Source of the DNA: Paludibacteraceae bacterium
GTDB lineage: Bacteria; Bacteroidota; Bacteroidia; Bacteroidales; Paludibacteraceae
Assembly (NCBI GenBank): GCA_024683975.1
Contig: JAIKXR010000124.1
Coordinates: forward strand, 1 to 61,767
Reading direction: 5' to 3'
DNA: 61,767 nt
Numbering within the stretch: position 1 is the stretch's first letter; the number at the start of each line of letters is the position of its first letter. Positions 46,090 through 58,122 of the stretch are shown piece after piece. A program made the position numbers and the translations under genes. The notes under the pieces are model-generated. The model had not been told where the DNA came from, did no database searches, and was given only the letters and a program-made list of their open reading frames with translations.

Positions 46090-46452
46090 TTATGCCTCCT
46101 CTTGGTTAGCGGGTTCAACATTTTTCTTACCGCCACGGCGTTTCTCGCTGTACTGGTAAGCATACTTGTCAAGACGTGTGGTGAGGAAACGAATAACGCG
46201 CTCGTCACGACGGAATTCGGTCTCGAGAGTGGCTATTACACTCGGCTCAACGTCAAACTGCAACAGGGCATAGAAACCTGTTGTCTTGCCTTGGATGGGG
46301 TATGCCAGTTTGCGCAACCCCCACTCCTCGCGCTCTATAACGGTACCGCCGTTCTGCACGAGAAGGTCACTGAACTTGCTGACTGTTTCCTTCATCTGCG
46401 GCTCAGACAAAACGGGAGTTAAGATGAAAACAGCCTCGTAGTGATTGATCAT
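46090..46452 (-). CDS. rpsF: 30S ribosomal protein S6
   Basis: [17 protein letters not shown]...GLRKLAYPI is the canonical S6 sequence. Confidence 0.93.
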
Positions 46453-46868: not shown

Positions 46869-47337
46869 TCCACGAATATTTTTTGCTCATCAACGGTCAT
46901 CATATTTTGATTGTAACCGGCTGAAAATGGTCATTTTAATATGCGTTAAGTGCTGTACTTTTTTGCGATGTTCACCGGTCGCGATATTGATTTTTGTAAT
47001 TAACGGAATATCAACAGTTTGTGAATTTTAGGTTATGCGAAGGTTATGTGAAGGTATTGGGAAGGTATTGGGAAAGTGTTATAATATACTGAAAATAAGC
47101 CGAATGTAATACAGAAGAAATAATGTAATTCAAGTTTCGCAAGTTGAGGGAAGTCGTGTTGCTGACGCAACATTACAGATGAAAACGATTGGGGATGAAC
47201 AAAAATATTCGTAAAAAATCCGTGAGCAATCATATTTTTTCCACGACAATGAACCAACCGATATACAACCAACTGACAGCCTATAACATACCACCCCGCA
47301 CAGACATCAGTCCCGAATTAGATAATCCACCACATAT

Positions 47338-50300
47338 ATGTTCTTTCAAAACTCCATCCTGAAGAAATACCTCGCCATGCTCAATGATGAGCAGGTCAAG
47401 GCGGCATGGGAGCAATACCAGGCTTTGTTCCTGAATCAGACCAGGCAGGACAACATCCTTACCTCGAAAGAGGAGCAGTACCAGGAAGGTTTCCTGCGCG
47501 AGTTGTTTGTCAAGACGCTGGGTTATACCATCAACCCCGACCCCGACTTCAATCTCATTACCGAGAAGAAGAACGAGACAGACTCCAAGAAGGCGGACGG
47601 AGCCATCCAGCGTGACGGCAAAGTGATTGGCATCATCGAACTCAAAGACCATAAAACGCCGGACTTGAAGCAGGTGGAGACACAGGCATTCGGCTACAAG
47701 AACCGGCATCGTGGCACGCGGTATGTGGTCATCTCCAATTTTGAGAAACTGCGTTTCTATATTGATGACGCGACAGAATACATGGAGTGGGATTTGTTCT
47801 CGCTCAAAGAAGAGGATTTCCGTGAACTCTTTTTCTGCCTGTCATGGGACACGCTCAGCCAGGATCTGCCGATTAAAGCCAAGACGGAGAGCGTCAGCAG
47901 CGAGGACCAGATAACGCAGCAGCTCTATCGCGACTATTCCGCTTTCAAGCGTGAACTGTTTGCCGACATCCTCAAGAACAACACCACGGACGAGACACCC
48001 AAAGAGCAGATACTCCTCCTTTTCAAAAAGACACAGAAACTCCTTGACCGCCTGCTGTTCATCTTCTTTGCCGAGGACAGCGGACTGCTGCCGCCCAATT
48101 CGATGGTCCTGATTTTAGACGACTGGCAGAAACTCAAGGATATGGACGAGTACCGGCCGCTATACAGCCGCATACGGAAGTACTTCGGCTATCTCGACAC
48201 GGGCTTTCAGGGGAAACATTACGAAATCTTCGCTTACAACGGCGGCTTGTTCAAACCCGACGAGGTATTAGACAGCATCACCATCAGCGATGAGGTGCTG
48301 GCTGCGCACTGCCGCCGTCTGTCGGACTACAACTACGCTTCCGAGGTCGATGTCAATATCCTCGGACACATCTTCGAGAACTCGCTCAACGAGATTGAGG
48401 AAGTCACAGCACAAATCAACAGGAGCGCAAGCGTCCCGCTTGCGAAAAATGAAGATGCGTCAAACAGCCGCGAGCGGGACGCTCACGCTCCCGGCAAACG
48501 CAAGCGCGACGGCGTGTTCTATACCCCGCAGTATATCACCAAATACATCGTTGAGAACACTGTCGGCCGCCTCTGCGCGGAGAAAAAAGCGGAACTGGGC
48601 GTAACCGGGAGCGCAAGCGTCCCGCTTGCGAAGAAGGCTGACAAACAAGCGCGCCTGGCAGTTCTTGAACGCTACCGTGAGTGGCTTAAAGGAATCACCA
48701 TCTGCGACCCTGCCTGCGGTTCGGGTGCATTCCTCAATGCCGCGCTCCGTTTCCTGATGGATGAGCACAAACTGCTTGATGAGATGGAAGCGAAAGTGGC
48801 TGGAGCCAGTATCGTCTTCCAGAATGTGGAAAACGCCATTTTGGAGAACAACCTCTTTGGCGTGGATATCAACGAGGAGAGTGTGGAGATAGCGAAACTG
48901 GCTTTGTGGCTCCGTACCGCCAAGCCGCACCGCAAACTGAGTTCGCTTAATGATAACATTAAATGCGGTAACTCTCTTATTAACGACCCGGAAATCGCAA
49001 GAGAAAAAGCCTTCAACTGGCAGGCCGAGTTCCCGGATGTCTTCAAGAGCGCGAGCGTCCCGCTCGCGACAAATATGTCAACAGTCATGAGCGACCAACG
49101 CGAGCGGGACGCTCACGCTCCTGTTAAGCCATGGCATAGCAGACACTACGTGCCGCATATTGAGGACAAAAAATTCCAGTTTGTCACTTTCCGCTTATAC
49201 GACAGTATGCCAAAGGATATTATAGACAAATGGAAGGAAGAATTAAAGATTACTGACGAAGAGAAAACACCTGTTCCGATTTTAACCCGATTGTTAGAAC
49301 GAATAAACAAATTTGAGGATACAGGATATGGTCAGTGCTTCTTACGTGATGAACGGATAGCCAAGCTGGTGGAGGATGCTTTACTGCGTTTTGACGGTCA
49401 ACAATACAGATTGTTAAGGTGGTGCATTATGCCCAATCATGTACACGTTCTTATTGAAGTGTTACCAAACAACAGTCTGACTGCTATTATGCACTCATGG
49501 CGTTCCTATACAGCACATGAAGCAAACAAGATTTTAGAACGTACAGGAGAGTTTTGGCAAAAAGAGTATTTTGACCGTTATATACGTAATGCCCAGCATT
49601 TCCGTGATACGGTGGATTATATCGATAATAACCCTGTTAATGCAGGACTGGTTGCCACACCTGAAGATTGGCAGTGGTGTACCAGGAGCGCGAGCGTCCC
49701 GCTCGCGACAAGTGAGACGACTAACACTAACGACCTTCGCAAGCGAGACGCTTGCGCTCCTGAAGACCAACGCGAGCGGGACGCTCACGCTCCTGAAGAC
49801 CTTCGCAAGCGAGACGCTTGCGCTCCCGGCTTCGACATCGTAATCGGCAATCCGCCGTATGTGAATATGGTCAATATACTTGACGAGAACCAACGCAAGT
49901 ATTACCAAAAGAACTACAAGACTGTCAAGAACAAGTCGGATTTATATTCCATCTTTACCGAGAAGTCCGCACAACTCCTTAAACCCAACGGAAAATTCGG
50001 ATTTATCTTCTCCAACAGTTGGATGGGGACAGAGAGTTTCTCCACTTTCAGAGAGTTCCTTGCACATGATGTGAAAGTGACCAAACTGGTGGAATTGCCG
50101 CCAGGTGTCTTTTCGGATGCGACAGTGACTACCGTCCTGTGTTTTTACGAGAACACCAAACCGAAGGAAACAGATATCATTGAAATAGAGACATACAAAG
50201 ACGGGCAGTTTATTCCCAAAGGCTTTTTCCTTCCCTATAAGCAGGTACTGGAGAACCCCAATACTTCATTCTCATTTGAGAAGACAATAGAACTGAACAA

Positions 50301-51198
50301 AGTGCCGACAATCGAGTTGGGAGATATTGTCTCTTTCTCTTTGGGTATTAAGACGAGCGATGACAAGCGGTTTGTATTTGAGGAGAAGAAAGACGATGAC
50401 TGCCATTTGTTTTTGAGAGGCAGAAATATAAAAAGATGGAACACTCCGGAGAATAACGAGTGGTTGTGGTATAAACCGGAACTCATCTGCGAGAAACCCG
50501 GCGGCAGACCACGGATATTTGAAAACTTTGTAGTTGATAAGAAGATTGTAATCCAAGATATTGCTGCTGAAATAATAGCGACATTGGATTGTAATAAATA
50601 TCTGTGTAATGACACATTGAATATCATATTTGACATTGACAGAAAATATGATTTTGAATATATTTTGGTTCTGTTAAACTCTAAATTGGTAAATACTTGG
50701 TTCAAGAAAGTCTATCCAGCTGGATTACATATAAAAACCAATCAACTGGAAACAATTCCTATACCTGTTATATCTGCTGCCGACCAACAGCCCTTTATAG
50801 ACCATGCTGACCGGATGTTGTCTTTGAACAAAGACTTACAAGAGAAGCGTGCGCGGTTCCTGCGGAGACTGCAGGACAACATCAGGAGCGCGAGCGTCAC
50901 GCTCGCGGCAAACACAGACAACAATCGCGAGCGGGACGCTCACGCTCCTGTGCGTATCACCGCCGCGTTTGAGACCTTCGAAACCCTTGATTTTGCAGGC
51001 TTTGTTGCCGAACTCAAAAAGCAGAAGATCCAACTCTCCCTTGTGCAACAGGACGAGTGGGAGGACTATTTCACCCGATACAAATCTGATTGCAACGCCT
51101 TGACTGCAACAATCGCAGAGACAGACAAAGAGATTGACGCTCTTGTCTATGCCCTCTACGGTCTTACAGACGATGAAATAAAGTTGATAGAGCAATAA
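47338..51198 (+). CDS. Type IIG restriction-modification enzyme (Eco57I/MmeI-like nuclease + gamma-class N6-adenine methyltransferase + TRD) with in-frame REP and RAYT insertions
   Basis: N-terminal PD-(D/E)xK-like KADGAI...VIGIIELKD. MTase motifs are GVFYTPQYI, ICDPACGSGAFL, NLFGVDINEESVEIAKLALWL and VIGNPPYV (NPPY at 49849-49860). The C-terminus is TaqI-like (LGDIVSFSLGIKTSDDKRF). It is one uninterrupted 1286-aa frame. Confidence 0.85.
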   Translation: MFFQNSILKKYLAMLNDEQVKAAWEQYQALFLNQTRQDNILTSKEEQYQEGFLRELFVKTLGYTINPDPDFNLITEKKNETDSKKADGAIQRDGKVIGIIELKDHKTPDLKQVETQAFGYKNRHRGTRYVVISNFEKLRFYIDDATEYMEWDLFSLKEEDFRELFFCLSWDTLSQDLPIKAKTESVSSEDQITQQLYRDYSAFKRELFADILKNNTTDETPKEQILLLFKKTQKLLDRLLFIFFAEDSGLLPPNSMVLILDDWQKLKDMDEYRPLYSRIRKYFGYLDTGFQGKHYEIFAYNGGLFKPDEVLDSITISDEVLAAHCRRLSDYNYASEVDVNILGHIFENSLNEIEEVTAQINRSASVPLAKNEDASNSRERDAHAPGKRKRDGVFYTPQYITKYIVENTVGRLCAEKKAELGVTGSASVPLAKKADKQARLAVLERYREWLKGITICDPACGSGAFLNAALRFLMDEHKLLDEMEAKVAGASIVFQNVENAILENNLFGVDINEESVEIAKLALWLRTAKPHRKLSSLNDNIKCGNSLINDPEIAREKAFNWQAEFPDVFKSASVPLATNMSTVMSDQRERDAHAPVKPWHSRHYVPHIEDKKFQFVTFRLYDSMPKDIIDKWKEELKITDEEKTPVPILTRLLERINKFEDTGYGQCFLRDERIAKLVEDALLRFDGQQYRLLRWCIMPNHVHVLIEVLPNNSLTAIMHSWRSYTAHEANKILERTGEFWQKEYFDRYIRNAQHFRDTVDYIDNNPVNAGLVATPEDWQWCTRSASVPLATSETTNTNDLRKRDACAPEDQRERDAHAPEDLRKRDACAPGFDIVIGNPPYVNMVNILDENQRKYYQKNYKTVKNKSDLYSIFTEKSAQLLKPNGKFGFIFSNSWMGTESFSTFREFLAHDVKVTKLVELPPGVFSDATVTTVLCFYENTKPKETDIIEIETYKDGQFIPKGFFLPYKQVLENPNTSFSFEKTIELNKVPTIELGDIVSFSLGIKTSDDKRFVFEEKKDDDCHLFLRGRNIKRWNTPENNEWLWYKPELICEKPGGRPRIFENFVVDKKIVIQDIAAEIIATLDCNKYLCNDTLNIIFDIDRKYDFEYILVLLNSKLVNTWFKKVYPAGLHIKTNQLETIPIPVISAADQQPFIDHADRMLSLNKDLQEKRARFLRRLQDNIRSASVTLAANTDNNRERDAHAPVRITAAFETFETLDFAGFVAELKKQKIQLSLVQQDEWEDYFTRYKSDCNALTATIAETDKEIDALVYALYGLTDDEIKLIEQ
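48422..48491. repeat. REP inverted doublet 1 (forward 48422-48444, reverse 48469-48491)
   Basis: GGAGCGCAAGCGTCCCGCTTGCG / CGCGAGCGGGACGCTCACGCTCC with a 24-nt spacer. It translates as SASVPLA...RERDAHAP. Confidence 0.9.
48608..48630 (+). repeat. Solo REP unit
   Basis: GGAGCGCAAGCGTCCCGCTTGCG, identical to the forward unit of doublet 1. No inverted partner was seen. Confidence 0.85.
49046..49121. repeat. REP inverted doublet flanking the RAYT on the left (forward 49046-49068, reverse 49099-49121)
   Basis: AGAGCGCGAGCGTCCCGCTCGCG / CGCGAGCGGGACGCTCACGCTCC with a 30-nt spacer. The spacer contains in-frame ATGs at 49075 and 49087. Confidence 0.9.
49123..49683 (+). mobile_element. REP-associated tyrosine transposase (RAYT / TnpA-REP, IS200-IS605 Y1 HUH family) domain embedded in the RM ORF
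   Basis: RHYVPHIEDKKFQFVTFRL..., the HUH motif in IMPNHVHVLI (49438-49449), Tyr in SWRSYTAHEANK (49507-49509), and FWQKEYFDRYIRN..TVDYIDNNPVNAGLV..PEDWQWC. It resembles E. coli RayT/YafM-type proteins, judged from memory. It has no stop codon of its own. Confidence 0.8.
49685..49826. repeat. REP cluster right of the RAYT: one forward unit (49685-49707) plus three reverse units (49738-49760, 49771-49793, 49804-49826)
   Basis: The reverse units form three tandem 33-nt (11-codon) repeats at 49728-49826. They alternate between variants CGCAAGCGAGACGCTTGCGCTCC and CGCGAGCGGGACGCTCACGCTCC. Confidence 0.9.
50885..50948. repeat. REP inverted doublet 5 (forward 50885-50907, reverse 50926-50948)
   Basis: GGAGCGCGAGCGTCACGCTCGCG / CGCGAGCGGGACGCTCACGCTCC with an 18-nt spacer. 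It translates as SASVTLA...RERDAHAP. Confidence 0.9.
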
Positions 51199-51218
51199 TT
51201 TGTGCTTGATGCGTACAA

Positions 51219-51451
51219 GGGGGCAAGGCTTGGGGAAATTCCGTTTGACAAACTGAAATCGGAGTATTATCCCTATGTTATCGTTTGGGAAAGTTATGAT
51301 TTTGTTCTTGACAAACTCAAACAGGCAGGTTGGAATAAAAGACAGGTCAATTGACACAACAAACTAAGCCGAACATCCGATTAAAGAATAAGTAAAATGT
51401 TATATTCATTGGCATATCACAAGGCCTACAAAATAATAACAATCATAAAAA
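51219..51451 (+). repeat. 233-bp direct repeat, copy A (partner at 54704-54939)
   Basis: About 93% identical by eye. Bases 51219-51354 are a 3' gene fragment encoding GARLGEIPFDKLKSEYYPYVIVWESYDFVLDKLKQAGWNKRQVN*, paralogous to the end of CDS 53847-54839. It starts 20 nt after the RM stop. Confidence 0.9.
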
Positions 51452-51461
51452 TTATACATTT

Positions 51462-52820
51462 ATGGAAACAACTGAAAACCAAAGACCCACAATTGTACTT
51501 AATCGTATGTTTGCTGGTAAATATCTCTCCAATCATATCGGGCATGAGATAATTAATATGTTCAAGTCCGACAACGGACATAACTATATATACATTCAAC
51601 CGTATGGCACCTATGATGCCATACATTTTGGAGAGATAGGCTATGTGATGCTGGTTAGAGGTTTGGAGGGTAAGCGGGCGTTGGAAGTCCTCGGTATAGC
51701 CACAGATCTGAAAGATATTTATGACCCCAAGAATACAGATATTTATGACCCCAAGAATACAAAACAGTGGAAATTTACACAGGAACTAATTAAAAAACAA
51801 GAAATCACATACGGCGGTGTGCATTTAGATAAGATATTCGTTCATAAAGTAGGAGACAAAGATGCGCAAAGTGTATATATCACTTTTGAGGCGGGCAAGG
51901 TAATGCGTCCGAATAAGCCTCTGTATTTGGTGTATGGCGAAAAAGATACTATCTGCGATTCAAATGCAAAGGTGATACTTCTTCCGAATACCGGACAGGC
52001 AAAGTCTTCTTTGAAGCAGTATTTTACAAGTGATAATGAAGATTACAAAAAACTGCTTGATTTGATTAATGAAAAGGACTTATGGACTGTTGAAACAACC
52101 AAAGTGAATACTGAGAAATCGCTTGACATGAAGAAAGAAGACAATTTCTTTGATATTTGTGGAGTGGATGACTATGAGTTGGCTTTTTCTAATGCCTTCG
52201 CCTACTTTATGGATAAATATCCGGAACTGGTAGTAGAATTTGCAAAAGAAGTTCTTGCGAAAGAAAATATCAAGGTAACCGACAAACCATTCTACATCAT
52301 TGAGCGTGAAGTGAATAATGTGGATATTCTGTTGGAAAATGATGAAAAAGTGGTTGTGATAGAGAACAAAGTAACATCAAAAATAAATGGTGTTAAGGTC
52401 GTGGATAATAAAACAATCGGAACACAACTGGATAAGTATTACAGATACGCTTTGGAGCGTGCAAATGGAGAGGATAAAGAGAATAAGGGCAAAGGCCAAG
52501 TGAAAAGGAAACAAAACAAAGAAGTTGCTTGCTATATATTGACTCCCAATTACAACCCAATAGACCTTAGCAGTTATTTTATTCCAGGGTTCAATCCGGT
52601 AAATCATTACAAACAGATTTTTTATAAACAAGTTTATGATTTCCTTAAGAACAAGCATCCCGAAGACTGGTATTTTCAAGAATTTATAAAGGGTCTGGAG
52701 AAACACACAAAGGAACATCATAATGATTTGTTTGAAGATACTATGCAGAAGTTTGTCAAACAAATCAAAGTAAAGTCAAATGAGGATAAACAAGGGAGTA
52801 CGCCCGAAATTGGTGGATAA
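51462..52820 (+). CDS. PD-(D/E)xK nuclease-family protein with an uncharacterised ~210-aa N-terminal domain
   Basis: The C-terminal half (NFFDICGVDDYELAFSNAFAYFM ... VNNVDILLENDEKVVVIENKV ... QLDKYYRY) fits the D...E.K nuclease family common in defence islands, judged from memory. The N-terminal half has no motif I recognise. Confidence 0.6.
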   Translation: METTENQRPTIVLNRMFAGKYLSNHIGHEIINMFKSDNGHNYIYIQPYGTYDAIHFGEIGYVMLVRGLEGKRALEVLGIATDLKDIYDPKNTDIYDPKNTKQWKFTQELIKKQEITYGGVHLDKIFVHKVGDKDAQSVYITFEAGKVMRPNKPLYLVYGEKDTICDSNAKVILLPNTGQAKSSLKQYFTSDNEDYKKLLDLINEKDLWTVETTKVNTEKSLDMKKEDNFFDICGVDDYELAFSNAFAYFMDKYPELVVEFAKEVLAKENIKVTDKPFYIIEREVNNVDILLENDEKVVVIENKVTSKINGVKVVDNKTIGTQLDKYYRYALERANGEDKENKGKGQVKRKQNKEVACYILTPNYNPIDLSSYFIPGFNPVNHYKQIFYKQVYDFLKNKHPEDWYFQEFIKGLEKHTKEHHNDLFEDTMQKFVKQIKVKSNEDKQGSTPEIGG

Positions 52821-53271
52821 GAATTTTGTCGCTTGCGGACGTCCGTTTCCCGAACAGCAGATTTGGGAAAAACGAAAGTGACTTATGGCGTATTGCTGAC
52901 AAGGCAAGGGAGTCTGACCGCTCCCTTGCTTACAAATGATTATGTATCTGTACTGATGTTCTTTGCCCGAATTACAATCGGATAAAAATCAGTGACTATA
53001 ACGACCTACAGAATATGACTCTGATGGCGCGTTATTACAAAGACGGCTATATAAAAAACGAAGAAAATGTTATCACTTAACTAAATTTATTGAGGTTTTT
53101 TGTTATATATAAAACAGAAGTCCCGTATTTTGCCGATTTCAAGAAGCCTTGGAACTTCACTCTCACAACCACGACACACAACTCGAAGACCTGATGTTTG
53201 CCCGCTTCCTTGCCATGACAACAAAATAACGGTTCCGCAATTTCTGGTAATCTACTATATCAAACACAACT

Positions 53272-53823
53272 ATGGACTTTAATGAATTGTCTGTTCGCTC
53301 TTTACGGCACCACCAGGTTACGCCGAGGATAATAATCAACCGCATGACAGGTGACATACTGAATTGGCTCCGTTCCATCGTCTGCACTAACGAAGAAAAA
53401 GCGGTATATGTTTTGGACGGACGAGAAATGACCGACTATCAATGGTTTTGCCAGCATTTGGAGGAAGTGCCGAACGGGTATATTGTTTTTACGCACTTAT
53501 CTGAAATTCCGTCTGGCAAGGACGCATTTCGTATCAAAGAGATGATTCGGTTTTGCCTCAGGGGATACTGGCGGTGGTGGACTATGGATGGTCTCCCTTA
53601 TCCCTTTTCCGAAAAATGGATGAGGACACTGGCGAAGAAATCCAAATTCATCGACATAATAATTATCTCTGAACGGAATGAATACAAGAAAAGCGGCACT
53701 TTCAAATCAATCGCAGAAAAGGATATTTCCTTCTCCTATCTTGCCGTATCCGACAATGGTTTTGAACCGATAAAGAAAACAAAGATAAAAACGGAGCAAG
53801 CCGAAAATCCGATTAAAGAGTAG
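53272..53823 (+). CDS. Hypothetical protein
   Basis: 183-aa ORF in an AT-rich cassette, on the same strand as its neighbours. I recognised no motif. Confidence 0.4.
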   Translation: MDFNELSVRSLRHHQVTPRIIINRMTGDILNWLRSIVCTNEEKAVYVLDGREMTDYQWFCQHLEEVPNGYIVFTHLSEIPSGKDAFRIKEMIRFCLRGYWRWWTMDGLPYPFSEKWMRTLAKKSKFIDIIIISERNEYKKSGTFKSIAEKDISFSYLAVSDNGFEPIKKTKIKTEQAENPIKE

Positions 53824-53846
53824 GCAATAATAAAACAACAACTATT

Positions 53847-54839
53847 ATGGAAAAAATTCAAGTCAATGACGACGGTGTTCTTGTTATTCCCGATGGAGTG
53901 ACATGTATAGAGAAAGATTCTATTGATTATCCTTATGAGATTAAAGAACTGGTAATCCCTGATTCTGTGATAAAAATTGCACGGGACGCTTTCAATAACT
54001 GTCATAACTTGGAGTCGGTCACTCTGCCTGCTAGATATTCTGTGTGCTATCCCGAGAACAAGGATGAAGCGCAAACATTATATTGGATTGCGGACCATAT
54101 AGATGAATGGGCGGACCAATTAAATGAACAACTAGAGGCACAAATGAAACAATCTCAACAGACTGGTGATGATGCACTTGCTAACGCGTTTGCTAAAACT
54201 ACAACAACATATTCATTTTCTTTTGACCGACTGTTTCGTGACTGCCGCAAGATTAAAAGAATAACATTTACGGGTAACAAACAGAAACTGGACTTCAGCC
54301 GTTGGGGATTTTCCGACAAACCAATCATTCGTTTGGACGGGGAAATCAAACATCTGGTTGTCGGTGAAAAATTCCATGACCGCTATGGCAAGCAGCGTGA
54401 TCAGTATAAGTTCCATATCAACAACTTTATTGAGAATGTTGAGGTTAGTGGAACAGACAAATGGACAGACGAAGACATGCTGTTCCGTGCCCCCTTGTCC
54501 GACAAAAAGCCTGTGGACGGTAGAATAGCGGAATTTACATTGTCGCCTTATACAATACATCATGATGGACTGCTGCGTGGTGTCAACTGGGAAAGATGGA
54601 GTTGCCCGATATCTATCGACAGTGACGCTGTTACCTGCATCTATCCTATATCTGTTCCTTGTTACGAAAGCGATCAACATGAGGGATGTTACATCCTGCT
54701 GATGGGGGCAAGGCTTGGGGAAATTCCGTTTGACCAATTGAAATCGGAGTATTATCCCTATGTTATAGTTTGGGAAAGTTATGATTTTGTTCTTGACAAA
54801 CTCAAACAGGCAGGTTGGAATAAAAGACAGGTCAATTGA
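53847..54839 (+). CDS. Hypothetical cytoplasmic protein with BspA-like LRR fragments
   Basis: No signal peptide. LVIPDGVTCIEKDSI...LVIPDSVIKIARDAFNNCHNLESVTLP and FRDCRKIKRITFTG resemble BspA LRR units. Its last 45 codons are duplicated at 51219-51354. Confidence 0.55.
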   Translation: MEKIQVNDDGVLVIPDGVTCIEKDSIDYPYEIKELVIPDSVIKIARDAFNNCHNLESVTLPARYSVCYPENKDEAQTLYWIADHIDEWADQLNEQLEAQMKQSQQTGDDALANAFAKTTTTYSFSFDRLFRDCRKIKRITFTGNKQKLDFSRWGFSDKPIIRLDGEIKHLVVGEKFHDRYGKQRDQYKFHINNFIENVEVSGTDKWTDEDMLFRAPLSDKKPVDGRIAEFTLSPYTIHHDGLLRGVNWERWSCPISIDSDAVTCIYPISVPCYESDQHEGCYILLMGARLGEIPFDQLKSEYYPYVIVWESYDFVLDKLKQAGWNKRQVN

Positions 54840-54939
54840 CATAACAAACCAAGCCGATCATCCGATTAAAGAGTAAGTAAAATGTTATATTCAATGGGCA
54901 TATCACAAGGCCTACAAAAATAATAACAATCATAAAAAG
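54704..54939 (+). repeat. Direct repeat, copy B (partner at 51219-51451)
   Basis: See copy A. It spans the 3' end of CDS 53847-54839 plus about 100 nt downstream. Confidence 0.9.
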
Positions 54940-55091
54940 AACCTGTTGTAGATAGCGTTTTTGCCGGAGACAGGCGGGCATCCTTCTAATCCTGTATCAG
55001 AAAGGTCTTGGGATGCCATTTTTTTGTTGCCGACAGTTAATTTTCCATCTCTTTTGGGTATATTATAGTTGTAACTATAATCTTATAGAAT

Positions 55092-55340
55092 ATGAACAAC
55101 TTACAAAAACTTGTTGGGCCGTACCATGAAGTAGATTGTCTGCGTCGGGAACTGAAAGTGCTGAATGCCAAGCGTGCTAAAATGACCGACCCTATAGAGC
55201 AAGAGGCCGCCAAAAAGCAGGCGCACGCACTACAGGCCGAATACAATGCCGCATTACAGAAACTGAAAGAGATGGCAAACGAGTACGAGTGGGACAGTAT
55301 AAGTCTTAAATTTAGGTTTATCGATGCCGCAGATATATGA
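55092..55340 (+). CDS. Hypothetical small coiled-coil protein
   Basis: 82-aa ORF with a charged heptad-like composition. No homolog recognised. Confidence 0.3.
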   Translation: MNNLQKLVGPYHEVDCLRRELKVLNAKRAKMTDPIEQEAAKKQAHALQAEYNAALQKLKEMANEYEWDSISLKFRFIDAADI

Positions 55341-55646
55341 ACGATGAAGACGACACTCTCTTGCATACTAAAACAATAAGATTATGAAGATTCTGGCGAT
55401 TTGTGAACATTCAGACAAAAGAGGCTTGTTCTTGAAACTTGGCAGGCAGAACCAGCCTGATAAAGTCAGAGTAATAGTTTCGCTGTTAAACAGCAGTATG
55501 GATGTTGATGATATTGTCAGTCCTGCCAAGACCGCTGAAGCCAAGCGGCAGGCTGCAACGGAAGTCATGCGCCGCCTTATGATGTTACGGATAATGCCAT
55601 TCACTATCTTTTCAATGAATACAGATTCAGTTAATCACCACAATCA

Positions 55647-55670
55647 GTCAGGCGGGCTTGCCCGCCTGAC
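55647..55670 (+). repeat. GC-rich hairpin family, member 1
   Basis: GTCAGGCGGGC-tt-GCCCGCCTGAC is a perfect 11-bp palindrome. Related hairpins lie at 60117 and 61147. Confidence 0.8.
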
Positions 55671-55896
55671 TACTCATATAGCGACTAAACAAATACATTT
55701 TTCTGACCTGTTATGTTCACTTTTTTGGTACTTTTATAAAACAGCATTATCTTTGCAACGTCATTCTTATAAAATCATTTTTAACAAAACATGCTGATTT
55801 TATAAAACCACACTTAACAAACACACCGAATAAATCATTTAAGCGAGACAGTGATATTTATTTTGTAATCTTGCTATATTCAACAGATATTGACAC

Positions 55897-56151
55897 ATGG
55901 AAACAGACAATTATAATGCAACGACAGATAGAGTTCAGCAGTTCAAGCGTGAACTCTCGCGGGTGTTCGATGACAACCTGCATACCAAGCAGTGGCATAA
56001 CTATGTGGACTATGCCATTATCGGATTGATTATACTATCCACAGTGGAGGTGTTCCGGGTCATCTCACCTTTTGTGTTTTTGGTATTTTTCTGTAAAAAT
56101 ATTTGCTCATGCAGTGAAAAGCAGTACTTTTGTAGTCGATTATATGATTAA
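55897..56151 (+). pseudogene. N-terminal fragment of an ion-transport (voltage-gated channel-like) protein
   Basis: RVFDDNLHTKQWHNYVDYAIIGLIILSTVEVF resembles the N-terminus and first TM helix of Bacteroidales ion transporters, judged from memory. The reading frame degenerates after about 60 aa, just before a TACTTTTG promoter box for the next gene. Confidence 0.4.
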
Positions 56152-56174
56152 TTAAACCATTAAATTGTATTGAT

Positions 56175-57395
56175 ATGAAAAAACTCTTGACTTCCATTCT
56201 GATTTGTATGTCCGCGACGGGGGCATACGCACTACGAGTATCGGACTCAATTTATATTGGTCCATCTAACAACGTAGCCAATCTGGTAATGTCCACCGAG
56301 GATTATGACAATTGGATACAAAATGACGGGTTTAGAACAAGCACACAACCAGTTACAATAACTAAGAAATTGTACCAGTATTTCAAGGATGATTTTGATG
56401 TTATCATGTTGATAACCAATGAAGCAAAAAAACCTCAAACTATTTCCTATTATGGAGTGAACAGGCCTATTGCCAATAGTGTGGAAGGCATAGGTATGAG
56501 TATTTATAGCAACGCCTCATATTATGGATCGGCAGAAAAATTATTCTCATTGATGTATCTGCCTTATATGGATGCCATTAAATATGGTCCCACACTGCAT
56601 GAATTTTGTCATTGCTGGGCTAATTATGCCATCCCTACTGCGGTAGATGGGCATTGGGGAATATGTGGTGGTAATACCAGAGGACAATTGGGAGGTTTCA
56701 AACAAAGCACGCTTCTTACTAATGTAGATGGCATTGCCAATAAATATTCTGCAGAGACATTCGGAACTAATGCTAATGGAGGAAACGGTGTTCCTTATAA
56801 CGAATTTGAATTGTATCTGATGGGAATGCTGCCTATTGAATCCGTTCAGGAGTTCGATGCTTTTCCTGTAGTACCTTCTGAGACTTTTCAATACTGCGAT
56901 GAAAGCAAACAGCGCATTTGCTTTTACGCGGATACACGTAATCATTACACGCAAGCATCACTTATCAATTTGCTCGGACAACGCGTTCCAAACTATACAG
57001 ATTCTCAAAAACAATTCAAAGCACTCTTCGTCATTCTTTCTAAAGAGCCGTTGACATCACTGGAATGGACGGCATGTGAATCTGCGATAGGATGGTTCTG
57101 CCAGACATCCGACGATGGTAGTAGCCTGTATAATTTCTGGGAGGCAACGGGAGGTGTCGGGTCTATTGATCCGAGCGACTTGAGTTCTTCATTAAAGAAC
57201 CCGACTCAGATACAAACCGTTGATTCGGACATGCAGATAGATATACATATTATGCCATCTACCATTATCTGCTCGGAGCCTTTCCATGTATTTAATATGT
57301 CCGGACAAGATGTAACGGAACAAAATGGCTCACTTCCATACGGTATATATATTGTCCATACAACAAATGGATCACATAAAGTATATGTAAAATAA
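56175..57395 (+). CDS. Secreted putative zinc metalloprotease with T9SS C-terminal sorting domain
   Basis: Signal peptide MKKLLTSILICMSATGAYA, an HExxH motif (HEFCHCW), and a C-terminal beta-rich tail ...GSLPYGIYIVHTTNGSHKVYVK typical of Por/T9SS CTDs. Confidence 0.62.
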   Translation: MKKLLTSILICMSATGAYALRVSDSIYIGPSNNVANLVMSTEDYDNWIQNDGFRTSTQPVTITKKLYQYFKDDFDVIMLITNEAKKPQTISYYGVNRPIANSVEGIGMSIYSNASYYGSAEKLFSLMYLPYMDAIKYGPTLHEFCHCWANYAIPTAVDGHWGICGGNTRGQLGGFKQSTLLTNVDGIANKYSAETFGTNANGGNGVPYNEFELYLMGMLPIESVQEFDAFPVVPSETFQYCDESKQRICFYADTRNHYTQASLINLLGQRVPNYTDSQKQFKALFVILSKEPLTSLEWTACESAIGWFCQTSDDGSSLYNFWEATGGVGSIDPSDLSSSLKNPTQIQTVDSDMQIDIHIMPSTIICSEPFHVFNMSGQDVTEQNGSLPYGIYIVHTTNGSHKVYVK

Positions 57396-57447
57396 TGTTA
57401 GTTCGATATAATTTTCAAAAGAGACAAAGTTTATTCGACTGTTCAAA

Positions 57448-58122
57448 CTACAGATTCTGCGAGGGTTTCTTCGGAAAATAACAGTACGCAGCAAGTGCAG
57501 CAAACGTATTGCATAGAAAATTCGCAATCGATTTATGGCGTGAGTATTCAACTCGCGCCATATTTTTCAGTTCGTCATTGATGGTTTCAATCAATGCTCT
57601 GGGACTCAATATGACTTTGTCCGCTTGGCTCACCAACATGTTCTTCATATTCTTCTTTAGCTTGATAATCAGTTGGATGCCTCCAATAAACAGGTTCTCA
57701 AACAACGACTGTCCGATGTAACCCTTGTCCCCGCACAACTTGCCTGTTATCTTCTCCACAAACCTCGGATTGTAGAGCGGTTTCCTGTCATCGGTATCAC
57801 CGGGACTGATTGCAAAATTGATAATCTCTCCCTTGTCGTTGATAATCAGATGCAGTTTGAAGCCGTAGAACCAGCCCATAGAGCATTTTCCTCTGGCAGC
57901 AAACCCTGCAAAGGTCTTGTGGATATGGATGCGCTGGTTCTTGCATACACGTAGGGGCGTTGAATCCACAAAGGATATTCCTGTACATTCAGCAAGCAGG
58001 CAAAATTTGACAAAGATTCCCGTTTCCTGCATCACTTCCATCTCCAGTTCCACAAAACGGTTATAGGAAACCGGTTTCGGGAACGGATGCCGGCAATGCG
58101 TGCAGATTTGTCTGCCAGTCAC
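57448..58122 (-). pseudogene. IS982-family DDE transposase, 5'-truncated
   Basis: FPKPVSYNRFVELE...FVDSTPLRVCKNQRI...GWFYGFKLHLIINDKGEI...LCGDKGYI...RALIETINDELKN matches IS982 transposases, judged from memory. About 80 N-terminal residues are missing. The truncation point abuts repeat copy 2 at 58123. Confidence 0.78.

What the first reader, a model, noticed from the sequence alone, without database searches (positions are those of the whole stretch)
48422..50948. Every REP copy is in the same codon phase and every doublet spacer is a multiple of 3
All 5 forward units are read as S-A-S-V-P/T-L-A, with the AGC codon starting at REP position 3 (48424, 48610, 49048, 49687, 50887). All 6 reverse units are read as R-E/K-R-D-A-H/C-A-P, with the CGC codon at REP position 1 (48469, 49099, 49738, 49771, 49804, 50926). 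None of the three frames of either orientation contains a stop, so stop avoidance does not force this phase. For five independent sites, chance agreement is about (1/3)^4. The spacers inside the four doublets differ in sequence but are 24, 30, 30 and 18 nt long. This points to selection at the translation or peptide level, or to phase-specific insertion or copying. Either would be new for REP-type elements.
Basis: seen in the sequence. Interest (0 to 1): 0.8.

Follow-up and report, generated by a model that had tools for sequence, protein, structure and literature searches.

The report
REP transposase nested in-frame in restriction gene
The eleven hairpin repeats flank a REP-associated transposase gene that sits, in frame, inside an intact restriction-modification gene, so their shared codon phase mostly reflects the need to keep one long reading frame open; the nesting itself recurs in many other genes and appears to be undescribed.

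Summary
There are 11 REP units, 5 forward and 6 reverse. All lie in one 1286-codon ORF (47338-51198), each orientation in a single codon phase, with doublet spacers of 24, 30, 30 and 18 nt.

The ORF is an Eco57I/MmeI-like Type IIG restriction-modification enzyme. Between REP sites 3 and 4 it carries a complete REP-associated tyrosine transposase (RAYT) in frame, with no stop codon of its own. Sites 3 and 4 are therefore one REPtron whose phase is fixed by the RAYT frame. The multiple-of-3 spacers follow from keeping the ORF open. That leaves three free sites, and the chance of agreement is about 1/27, not 1/81.

A homolog, P0043, has the same layout. It is 74-77% identical in protein and saturated at synonymous sites. 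Its REPs have 4-nt loops, and its spacers compensate (all 1 mod 3). This indicates long-term selection to preserve the frame.

Stem changes are compensatory while the encoded residues change (E/K, H/C). The hairpin is conserved, not the peptide.

A phase-specific insertion mechanism is not supported. The same REP core is read in other phases in other genomes, and related Type IIG genes show mixed phases (7:2, 3:1, 6:2).

In-frame REPs are already known. In-frame nested RAYTs, also found in ClpB and HAD hydrolase genes, appear to be new.

The parts
47338..51198 (+). Host ORF of 1286 aa: an Eco57I/MmeI-like Type IIG restriction-modification enzyme. It has an N-terminal nuclease region, a helicase-spacer domain, a gamma-class N6-adenine methyltransferase (motif I DPACGSGAF at aa 457-465, motif IV NPPY at aa 838-841) and a TaqI_C specificity domain. 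It carries all the insertions listed below in frame.
   Evidence: ORF list and translation. Pfam: Eco57I 146.8 bits, N6_Mtase, TaqI_C, MmeI_Mtase, MmeI_hel. About 120 homologs of roughly 991-1005 aa lack the insertions.
48422..48491 (+). REPIN 1 (site 1): forward REP 48423-48444, 24-nt spacer, reverse REP 48469-48490. It encodes RSASVPLAKNEDASNSRERDAHAP and lies in the variable linker between the helicase-spacer and methyltransferase domains.
   Evidence: Folds as a long hairpin: -25.7 kcal/mol, z = -5.2. The linker varies in length among homologs.
48609..48630 (+). Solo forward REP (site 2), encoding SASVPLA. It replaces host sequence rather than adding to it: this stretch is 2 aa shorter than in the empty allele P0002. 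It sits inside a diverged patch of about 120 nt (48578-48697).
   Evidence: Hairpin of -10 kcal/mol.
49047..49120 (+). REPIN 3, the left end of the REPtron: forward REP 49047-49068, 30-nt spacer, reverse REP 49099-49120. The spacer holds two in-frame ATG codons (MSTVMS) that could start the RAYT.
   Evidence: Hairpin of -29.6 kcal/mol, z = -6.7.
49121..49683 (+). RAYT (REP-associated tyrosine transposase) coding region, in frame with the host and with no stop codon of its own. The HUH motif NHVH is at aa 700-703, WQ lies in FWQKEY, and the catalytic Tyr motif YIDNNP is at aa 761-766.
   Evidence: NCBIfam REP_Tyr_transpos NF047646 scores 86.8-91.5 bits against a cut-off of 80. Pfam Y1_Tnp. PDB 4er8 TnpArep. 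77% aa identity to the RAYT in P0043, with pN 0.13 and pS 0.90.
49686..49825 (+). REP cluster 4, the right end of the REPtron: forward REP 49686-49707, 30-nt spacer, then three reverse REPs at 49738, 49771 and 49804 with a 33-nt period. It ends directly before GFDIVIGNPPY.
   Evidence: Folding energy -50.9 kcal/mol, z = -8.0.
50886..50947 (+). REPIN 5 (site 5): forward REP 50886-50907, 18-nt spacer, reverse REP 50926-50947. It encodes SASVTLAANTDNNRERDAHAP, in the loop between the specificity domain and the C-terminal helices.
   Evidence: Hairpin of -28.4 kcal/mol, z = -8.8. Empty alleles have 2 codons here (P-G, P-D or D-G).

Best explanation
The window holds a REPtron nested in frame inside a chromosomal Type IIG restriction-modification gene. 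A REPtron is a RAYT transposase gene together with its cognate REP/REPIN hairpins. The RAYT here is subclass-2.4-like, judged by its motifs.

The REP units are DNA hairpins, the kind of site a RAYT binds and cuts on single-stranded DNA. They lie in parts of the host gene that encode linkers and loops.

The RAYT has no stop codon. It is therefore translated either as part of the host polypeptide or from an ATG in the left REPIN spacer (this step is inferred).

The host ORF is under purifying selection. Only arrangements whose lengths are multiples of 3 and that contain no stop codons persist. This explains the spacer rule and fixes the phase of the REPs on either side of the RAYT.

Three outlying sites (1, 2 and 5) share that phase. 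The most likely reason is survivorship. The observed phase gives near-neutral, hydrophilic linker peptides, whereas the other two give arginine-rich peptides of +3 to +7 net charge. Off-frame stops in the doublet spacer may have contributed, and ready-made in-frame modules may have spread between alleles by recombination.

What is conserved is the hairpin plus the reading frame, not the peptide. No mechanism that senses codon phase is needed.
For: **Shown**
- All 11 REPs lie in one intact ORF.
- The RAYT is identified above its curated cut-off, has HUH and Tyr motifs, and is in frame without a stop.
- The doublets fold as REPIN hairpins, z = -5 to -9.
- P0043 has REPs and a RAYT at the same sites. 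Its host part is 74-77% and its RAYT 77% identical in protein, with pS 0.7-0.9 and pN 0.13-0.17.
- P0043's REP loops are 4 nt rather than 3, and its spacers are 19, 10, 31 and 10 nt. The outer REP ends keep the same phase as in the window.
- Stem variants are compensatory in the DNA but change amino acids in reverse units.
- The insertion sites map to length-variable linkers.
- Host segments of the window allele and the empty allele P0002 differ with omega 0.05-0.14.
- In-frame nesting of this RAYT group recurs:
  - Type IIG enzymes P0254, P0355, P0241 and L131;
  - ClpB, in 10 loci;
  - HAD hydrolases, a WYL regulator, SpoU and a ferredoxin.
- The observed phase gives net charge -1 to 0, against +3 to +7 for the other two phases.
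- Diverged patches surround each REP site in an otherwise 93-100% identical allele pair, whose flanks are unrelated.

**From the literature**
- Subclass 2.4 has REP insertions that keep the reading frame (PMC6006769).
Against: - Only three sites are free, so the statistical signal is weak (about 0.04). The charge argument was made after the fact.
- In Acidobacteriota genes the same REP core survives mainly in a different phase, so no single phase is universally the tolerated one.
- There is no expression or activity data. I cannot show that the 1286-aa protein is made or active, or that the RAYT is active.
- The structure model of aa 330-960 has low confidence (mean pLDDT 60, pTM 0.40). It cannot show that the two methyltransferase halves still assemble.
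- Only one 61.8-kb contig of the source genome is available, so genome-wide REP phase could not be tabulated.
- One related gene (L127) is broken just after the RAYT, so nesting is not always harmless.
Confidence: 0.7

Rival explanations
1. Phase-specific insertion or copying. The RAYT, or a copying process, places REP doublets only at codon boundaries, so phase is set by the mechanism.
For: - 5 of 5 forward and 6 of 6 reverse units are in one phase.
- The same holds in P0043: 6 of 6 and 4 of 4.
- Every insertion is preceded by a C in third codon position and starts with AGG, GGG or AAG.
Against: - A DNA transposase has no known way to sense the reading frame.
- P0043's sites are homologous to the window's, so they are not independent.
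- The same REP core is read in other phases in other genomes: GA(Q/R)ASRLR, ASxTLALQ and LERERLACE. It is read as GTQASRLR next to the Bacteroidales RAYTs P0143 and P0134.
- DNA-level counts in related Y1-bearing Type IIG genes give mixed phases: 7:2 in L124, 3:1 in L125 and 6:2 in L127.
Confidence: 0.05
2. Chance plus survivorship only. Insertions landed in random phases, frame-breaking ones were lost, and the agreement of the three free sites is luck.
For: - Once the REPtron is counted as a single event, the probability is only about 1/27.
- Other loci show a majority phase with exceptions.
- A broken relative exists: L127.
Against: A bias towards one phase recurs in several independent families: the window, L124, L125, L127, and 4 of 5 credible genic copies in Acidobacteriota. 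This is more than pure chance would be expected to give. None of these counts is significant on its own.
Confidence: 0.15
3. Co-option. The Y1/RAYT domain and the hairpins are a working part of the restriction enzyme gene, for example to exchange the specificity module between alleles or to control expression, rather than a passenger.
For: - Two different Y1 classes occupy exactly the same loop, after FPQVF and before GFDxVIGNPPY. They do so in Type IIG enzymes that are only about 40% identical.
- REPs are confined to the gene in every locus examined.
- In the window-P0043 comparison, aa 832-1175 (methyltransferase C-terminal half plus specificity domain) is only 30-39% identical while the flanks are 68-83% identical, and REP sites 4 and 5 bracket this region.
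- Alleles are mosaic, with patches of divergence at the REP sites.
Against: - The same RAYT group is nested in unrelated genes (ClpB, HAD hydrolase, SpoU, WYL regulator, ferredoxin). No restriction-specific role is therefore needed.
- The module boundaries coincide with conserved sequence islands that would promote recombination anyway.
- Most family members have no Y1 domain: 117 of the top 120.
Confidence: 0.08
4. Intragenic duplication of a single ancestral insertion. All REP sites in the gene would descend from one in-frame insertion, copied in register within the gene.
For: - The spacers at sites 3 and 4 share their ends (ACAA.T...CGACC).
- The three reverse units at site 4 are a 33-nt tandem array.
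- L127 has a 135-nt direct repeat on both sides of its RAYT.
Against: - Spacers at sites 1 and 5 differ in both length and sequence.
- The host flanks of the sites are unrelated to each other.
- Copying a 72-nt unit to a new position does not in itself preserve phase.
Confidence: 0.02

Closest known systems
REPtron: a RAYT gene flanked by its REP/REPIN hairpins (Nunvar 2010; Bertels & Rainey 2011, PMC3116915; Ton-Hoang 2012), specifically TnpA-REP subclass 2.4 of Quentin et al. 2018 (PMC6006769)
   Same: - A Y1 HUH transposase with NHVH, WQ and YIxNNP motifs.
- Flanked by inverted REP units that pair into REPIN hairpins.
- G.T wobble on one strand of the reverse units.
- REP sequence co-varies with its RAYT (window compared with P0043).
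- In-frame REP insertions are already noted for this subclass.
   Different: - The RAYT is not a stand-alone gene. It has no stop codon and lies in frame inside a larger host ORF.
- All REP copies seen are genic and confined to that one gene, rather than extragenic and dispersed.
Rickettsia palindromic elements (RPE; Ogata 2000, as summarised in PMC10969869) and the intragenic GTAG/CGTC REPs of Di Nocera et al. 2013 (PMC3733652)
   Same: - Short palindromic repeats inserted in frame in protein-coding genes.
- They add 20-30 residues per doublet, usually in loops or linkers.
- They are read as a recurring peptide, and the host protein is presumed still functional.
   Different: - In the window the transposase itself is also nested in the same ORF.
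- Five sites are concentrated in one gene.
- RPEs are 100-150 bp elements of Rickettsia with no associated transposase.
Inteins and other in-frame selfish elements
   Same: A selfish enzyme gene is carried in frame within a host gene, recurs at one position in a host protein family, and is expressed through the host ORF.
   Different: - There is no Hint or splicing domain and no splice-junction residues (Pfam; sequence).
- The insert presumably stays in the mature protein as an extra domain joined by repeat-coded linkers.
IS200/IS605 insertion sequences
   Same: A Y1 HUH transposase lies between sub-terminal hairpins, and single-strand 'peel and paste' chemistry is expected.
   Different: - The NCBIfam IS200 model scores below its cut-off (28-31 bits against 55), whereas the RAYT model passes.
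- There are no multiple identical copies, and the hairpins are REP doublets.

Membership tests
REP / REPIN | Short conserved palindrome present in multiple copies | tested here: met
   11 copies of a 22-nt unit with an 8-bp stem and 3-nt loop; 0 expected by chance.
REP / REPIN | Inverted doublets that fold into one long hairpin (REPIN) | tested here: met
   Four doublets fold with -25 to -51 kcal/mol and z = -5 to -9.
REP / REPIN | Extragenic location and dispersal around the genome | tested here: not met
   All 11 copies lie inside one ORF, with none in the other 58 kb of the window. The rest of the genome is not available. The same core is dispersed and mostly extragenic in Acidobacteriota: 58 of 68 copies are outside long ORFs.
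REP / REPIN | Association with a cognate RAYT | tested here: met
   The RAYT lies between REP sites 3 and 4.
RAYT (TnpA-REP), subclass 2.4 | Curated family model passed | tested here: met
   NF047646 REP_Tyr_transpos scores 86.8 bits for the whole ORF and 91.5 bits for the segment, against a cut-off of 80.
RAYT (TnpA-REP), subclass 2.4 | Motifs NH[IFV]H, WQ and YIxNNP (table in PMC6006769) | tested here: met
   NHVH at aa 700, FWQKEY, and YIDNNP at aa 761. The subclass is assigned from motifs only, not from a tree.
RAYT (TnpA-REP), subclass 2.4 | Stand-alone gene of roughly 150-330 aa, as RAYT genes are normally described (TnpA-Y1 subclass medians 148-325 aa, PMC6006769) | tested here: not met
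   There is no stop codon, and the reading frame continues into the host gene on both sides.
Type IIG restriction-modification enzyme (Eco57I/MmeI-like) | Gamma-class N6-adenine methyltransferase with motif I and NPPY, plus a specificity domain, in one polypeptide | tested here: met
   Eco57I 146.8 bits, N6_Mtase 66.7, TaqI_C 61.5 and MmeI_Mtase 58.1, all above their cut-offs. DPACGSGAF and NPPY are present.
Type IIG restriction-modification enzyme (Eco57I/MmeI-like) | N-terminal PD-(D/E)xK nuclease domain | tested here: inconclusive
   MmeI_N 19.4 bits and HSDR_N 23.5 bits are both below their cut-offs. MmeI_hel passes at 28.2 bits. D87...E101-x-K103 are invariant among homologs.
BREX PglX methyltransferase | Curated PglX model passed and BREX neighbour genes present | tested here: not met
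   BREX_1_MTaseX scores 176 bits against a cut-off of 500. The neighbours are rpsF and a PD-(D/E)xK gene.
Intein | Hint splicing domain and conserved splice-junction residues | tested here: not met
   Pfam finds no Hint or intein family. The junctions read FK|SAS... and ...CAP|GFD.
Rickettsia palindromic element | 100-150 bp element families of Rickettsia that encode a conserved peptide | tested here: not met
   The units here are 22 nt, or 62-74 nt as doublets, and the homologs come from Bacteroidales-type metagenomes. The resemblance is in behaviour only.

The most novel reading that the evidence does not exclude
One group of RAYTs and their REPs may have adopted an intein-like lifestyle without splicing. 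They would live as in-frame domain insertions inside host genes: Type IIG restriction enzymes, ClpB, HAD hydrolases, WYL regulators and SpoU. They would be translated through the host reading frame, with the REP hairpins doubling as codons for flexible linkers. The repeats would then be under a dual constraint, as a DNA hairpin for the transposase and as an open, benign reading frame for the host. In Type IIG enzymes, the recurrent use of one loop by two different Y1 classes could further mean that the domain has been co-opted.
Probability: 0.4. Interest if true: 0.75.

Novelty: new variant of a known kind. Interest (0 to 1): 0.6.

Why it matters
RAYTs are regarded as single-copy, stand-alone, domesticated transposases, and REPs as extragenic by definition. 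Here both are carried inside an intact reading frame, and a diverged homolog shows that this arrangement has been kept over long evolutionary time.

If it is real, three things follow.

- It gives a natural set of tolerated domain-insertion sites and repeat-coded linkers.
- It offers a new way for a selfish gene to secure expression.
- It makes directly testable how DNA-structure constraints and coding constraints coexist in the same bases.

There is also a practical point. Long "fusion" RAYT proteins were filtered out as annotation errors in the main survey of the family (PMC6006769). The phenomenon has probably been overlooked for that reason.

Tried and rejected
1. **Scan of 185,579 species genomes with the REP pattern.** It returned mostly Acidobacteriota REPINs with the same core, which I used as an outside comparison.
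2. **Metagenome scan with the host-RAYT junction.** It found no close RAYT-bearing allele. It did find empty alleles (L153, L154), more distant RAYTs, and the nested RAYTs in ClpB and HAD hydrolase genes.
3. **AlphaFold2 model of aa 330-960 with a mixed alignment.** Mean pLDDT was 60 and pTM 0.40.
   - The RAYT core is confident (blocks up to pLDDT 94).
   - The REP-coded segments at sites 1 and 4 are below pLDDT 50.
   - The model is too poor to judge whether the methyltransferase still assembles, so I ran no fold search.
4. **Exact insertion boundaries and target duplications.** Comparison with empty alleles shows that each site replaces 2-8 variable linker codons rather than being a clean insertion. 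No target site could be defined.
5. **Codon usage as the reason for the phase.** A CAI-like index does not favour the observed phase (0.74-0.78, against 0.76-0.81 for one alternative). Rejected.
6. **BREX PglX and intein membership.** Both rejected.
7. **A universally preferred 'mirror-symmetric' phase for palindromes.** It holds in the window, P0043 and L124 but not in L125. Rejected as a rule.
8. **Literature searches for Y1/RAYT domains nested in Type IIG or ClpB genes.** They found nothing relevant, and one search timed out.

Full report
**1. The observation**

A search with the degenerate REP consensus, allowing up to three mismatches, finds exactly 11 copies in the 61.8-kb window where none is expected. 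All 11 lie between 48423 and 50947. They all fall in a single ORF, 47338..51198 on the + strand, 1286 codons.

- Forward units start at 48423, 48609, 49047, 49686 and 50886. All are in phase 2 relative to the ORF start.
- Reverse units start at 48469, 49099, 49738, 49771, 49804 and 50926. All are in phase 0.
- The four doublet spacers are 24, 30, 30 and 18 nt.
- The REP arms have no stop codon in any frame.

**2. What the ORF is**

Pfam and NCBIfam identify an Eco57I/MmeI-like Type IIG restriction-modification enzyme. It has a helicase-spacer domain, a gamma-class N6-adenine methyltransferase with DPACGSGAF and NPPY motifs, and a TaqI_C specificity domain.

Between methyltransferase motif I and motif IV they also find a REP-associated tyrosine transposase (RAYT). 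It scores 86.8-91.5 bits on NF047646 against a cut-off of 80, and it also hits Y1_Tnp and the solved TnpArep structure 4er8.

The RAYT occupies about 49121-49683. It has HUH (NHVH), WQ and YIDNNP motifs, which are the motif set of TnpA-REP subclass 2.4 in PMC6006769. It is in frame with the host and has no stop codon.

REP sites 3 and 4 are its left and right ends, so this is a REPtron nested in a gene. The left spacer contains two in-frame ATGs (MSTVMS), which could give an independent start. That possibility is inference only.

The doublets fold as long REPIN hairpins with z-scores of -5 to -9. The gene is chromosomal. rpsF lies upstream on the other strand, and a PD-(D/E)xK gene lies downstream.

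**3. Consequences for the statistics**

- Sites 3 and 4 are one element. Their phase is dictated by the RAYT frame if the host ORF is to stay open.
- The three reverse units at site 4 are a 33-nt tandem array.
- Because the element ends are constant (AGGAGCG...CGCTCCY), a spacer that is a multiple of 3 is simply the condition for not shifting the frame.
- This leaves sites 1, 2 and 5 as free events. The chance that all three match the REPtron phase is about 1/27.
- The spacers, unlike the arms, do carry stops in other frames. A master doublet with such stops could have forced the phase.

**4. Comparison with relatives**

Nearly all of the top 120 homologs are 980-1050 aa and lack every insertion. 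The closest, P0002, is 97-99% identical in protein over most host segments.

P0043 (1355 aa) has the same architecture. REP doublets sit at sites 1 and 5, and a RAYT flanked by REPs sits at the same loop.

- Its REP is a relative of the window's, with a 4-nt loop (CGCAAGCA-NNNN-TGCTTGCG). There are 10 copies, all inside the gene, and none in 13.7 kb of flanks.
- All six forward and all four reverse units are each in one phase.
- The outer ends are in the same phase as in the window.
- The doublet spacers are 19, 10, 31 and 10 nt, all 1 mod 3. This exactly offsets the two extra loop bases.
- The window and P0043 differ by pN 0.13-0.17 with synonymous sites saturated. RAYT identity (77%) equals host identity (74-77%).

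The nested arrangement is therefore old, and the frame has been kept open through it. This is the strongest evidence for selection acting through translation.

**5. Hairpin, not peptide**

The two stem variants, CGCGAGCG/CGCTCGCG and CGCAAGCG/CGCTTGCG, are compensatory at the DNA level.

- In forward units the changes fall on third codon positions (GCG/GCA, CTC/CTT).
- In reverse units they change Glu to Lys and His to Cys.
- Four reverse units carry a G.T wobble on the minus strand, which is a C.A mismatch on the mRNA strand.

The constraint is on DNA structure plus an open frame, not on the peptide sequence.

**6. Is phase a property of the REP family?**

The evidence says no.

- *Other genomes.* The same core (CTGGAGCGCAAGCGTCYCGCTTGCG) is a dispersed REPIN in Acidobacteriota and other phyla. 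58 of 68 copies lie outside long ORFs.
- *Genic copies there.* The credible ones are read differently from the window:
  - GARASRLRS in a metallo-beta-lactamase-fold protein;
  - GAQASRLRN in an FAD oxidoreductase;
  - ASGTLALQ in Mfd;
  - SASETLALQ in a glycerate-kinase-like protein;
  - LERERLACE in ThiC.

  That is four in one phase and one in another, and none in the window's phase.
- *Bacteroidales RAYTs.* P0143 and P0134 are flanked by the related peptide GTQASRLR, again a phase different from the window's.
- *Other Type IIG genes with a Y1 domain.* DNA-level counts show a majority phase with exceptions:
  - L124: 9 palindromes, 7:2, with the third phase blocked by TAA;
  - L125: 3:1;
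  - L127: 6:2.

A mechanism that senses phase is therefore unlikely. A bias from differential tolerance is plausible. In the window the observed phase gives net charge -1 to 0, whereas the two alternatives give +3 to +7. This argument was made after the fact. Codon usage does not favour the observed phase.

**7. Presence/absence polymorphism**

At the nucleotide level the window allele and P0002 are 93-100% identical along the gene, with two kinds of exception:

- short diverged patches around each REP site (48398-48460, 48578-48697, 48938-49057, and 50798 to the gene end);
- unrelated flanks.

dS varies by segment: 0.27, 0.08, 0.04 and 1.17. P0043's host part is closer to empty alleles (85%) than to the window (74%).

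The alleles are mosaics. REP and RAYT modules are probably gained or lost by recombination between alleles, although precise excision cannot be excluded. Compared with empty alleles, each site replaces 2-8 variable linker codons, and site 2 is even 2 aa shorter. No clean target site can be defined.

**8. A wider pattern**

A search of 1.84 billion cluster representatives, together with Pfam scans, shows in-frame Y1 domains in many Type IIG enzymes.

- RAYT-like domains occur in P0254, P0265, P0355, P0241 and L131.
- A second Y1 class (DH.H ... YI.NNR.KH) occurs in P0051, P0370, P0283, P0277, P0326 and P0342. It sits at exactly the same loop before GFDxVIGNPPY, in proteins that are only about 40% identical. 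These genes carry their own in-frame palindromes.
- Of the 120 closest RAYT clusters, 17 are longer than 300 aa. They include fusions with HAD hydrolases, WYL-type regulators, DUF1156 and a CYTH-like protein.
- The metagenome scan added ten loci with a RAYT nested in frame in ClpB, between the first and second ATPase domains. The ORFs are 1124-1196 aa and Pfam confirms the architecture. It also added four HAD hydrolase fusions, one of them broken.
- A stand-alone relative, L126, has its five REPs only at the ends of the RAYT and none elsewhere in 20.8 kb.

**9. What is known**

- In-frame palindromic elements that encode a conserved peptide are the hallmark of Rickettsia RPEs (PMC10969869).
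- Di Nocera et al. list intragenic REPs that encode 20-30 residues per dimer and argue that they sit in linkers (PMC3733652).
- Quentin et al. report that subclass 2.4 REPs insert within tnpA-REP itself without disrupting the frame. They discarded unexpectedly long proteins as fusions or annotation errors (PMC6006769).

I found no paper describing RAYT or Y1 domains nested in Type IIG or ClpB genes. The searchable library is incomplete, so this is not proof of novelty.

**10. Verdict**

Its statistical weight is smaller than claimed. Its main cause is ordinary: an ORF that must stay open across a nested REPtron.

What lies underneath is the interesting part: a RAYT and its hairpins maintained in frame inside a restriction enzyme gene, as one case of a recurrent and apparently undescribed nesting habit. 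It is a new variant of a known kind.

Not shown are expression of the fusion protein, activity of either enzyme, the mode of REP spread, and the phase of copies elsewhere in the genome.

Noticed in passing
L141-L151 (for example L142:2300-5710): Ten metagenome loci, mostly from peat, bog or soil samples judging by their JGI sample series, carry a RAYT-like Y1 domain nested in frame in ClpB. It lies between the first ATPase/middle region and the second ATPase domain, in ORFs of 1124-1196 aa. It is flanked by repeat-coded Gly/Ser/Ala/Pro-rich peptides and an inverted repeat (L142:4577-4642).
   Followed up: partly
P0051 (L002:8106-11762), P0370 (L124:2608-6237), P0283 (L125:6001-9822), P0277, P0326, P0342: A second Y1 transposase-like class (HUH as DH.H, Tyr motif YI.NNR.KH) sits at exactly the same loop of Eco57I-like Type IIG enzymes as the window's RAYT. 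The host proteins are only about 40% identical to each other. Each gene carries its own in-frame perfect palindromes, for example CAAGGGGTTTAAACCCCTTG x9, CAATGGGGCATGCCCCATTG x4 and CTTCGGGGCATGCCCCGAAG x2, and these are found only inside the gene.
   Followed up: partly
window 47258-51198 compared with L003:10001-13012: The window allele and the empty allele P0002 are 93-100% identical in DNA except for short patches around each REP site. dS differs strongly between segments (0.04 to 1.17), and the flanking genes are unrelated. The restriction gene itself appears to move or recombine as a unit, and its alleles are mosaics.
   Followed up: partly
L006-L123 (for example L053, L067, L104, L118): The same 22-25 nt REP core as in the window is a dispersed REPIN family in Acidobacteriota, mainly Pyrinomonadaceae; one MAG has about 20 contigs with hits. 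It also occurs as a longer single hairpin in several other phyla. The cause could be shared ancestry or transfer of the RAYT-REP system, or convergence.
   Followed up: partly
L130, L135, L139, L140; P0176, P0177, P0229, P0263: A RAYT is fused in frame to the C-terminus of a HAD-family hydrolase in several rumen or gut-type metagenome contigs. The two are joined by repeat-coded peptides. In L140 the fusion carries an in-frame stop.
   Followed up: partly
L127:6-2937: This is a Type IIG gene with a nested RAYT whose reading frame is broken just after the RAYT, giving two overlapping ORFs (6-1559 and 1519-2937). It also has a 135-nt direct repeat on both sides of the RAYT and a 45-nt tandem REP array at the contig start.
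   Followed up: partly
L003:11072-11155 (P0002 aa 358-385): At site 1 the empty allele P0002 has its own 24-nt tandem duplication (GGTCTAACATCTAACAG...), encoding GLTSNSVS-GLTSNS. It shares the peptide SNS and 8 of 9 of its bases (TCT/TCA AAC AGC) with the window's REPIN spacer. This could be a remnant of the REPIN or a coincidence.
   Followed up: no
L001:5007-5026, approximate (P0043, site 2 equivalent): Where the window has its solo REP, P0043 has a different 20-nt hairpin, GCAACGTTT-GG-AAACGTTGC, within a 6-codon insertion (TFGNVA).
   Followed up: no
window 50001-58000: G+C drops to 0.38-0.41 here, compared with 0.45-0.51 over most of the window. The drop starts in the specificity-domain half of the restriction gene and covers the downstream PD-(D/E)xK gene (51462-52820). 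This may be a horizontally acquired defence islet next to rpsF (46090-46452, minus strand).
   Followed up: no
L125:8169-8277: A 15-nt tandem repeat (CACCTCCGTATCCGG and variants, about 6 copies) lies inside the P0283 gene next to its Y1 domain and encodes TSVSG repeats.
   Followed up: no
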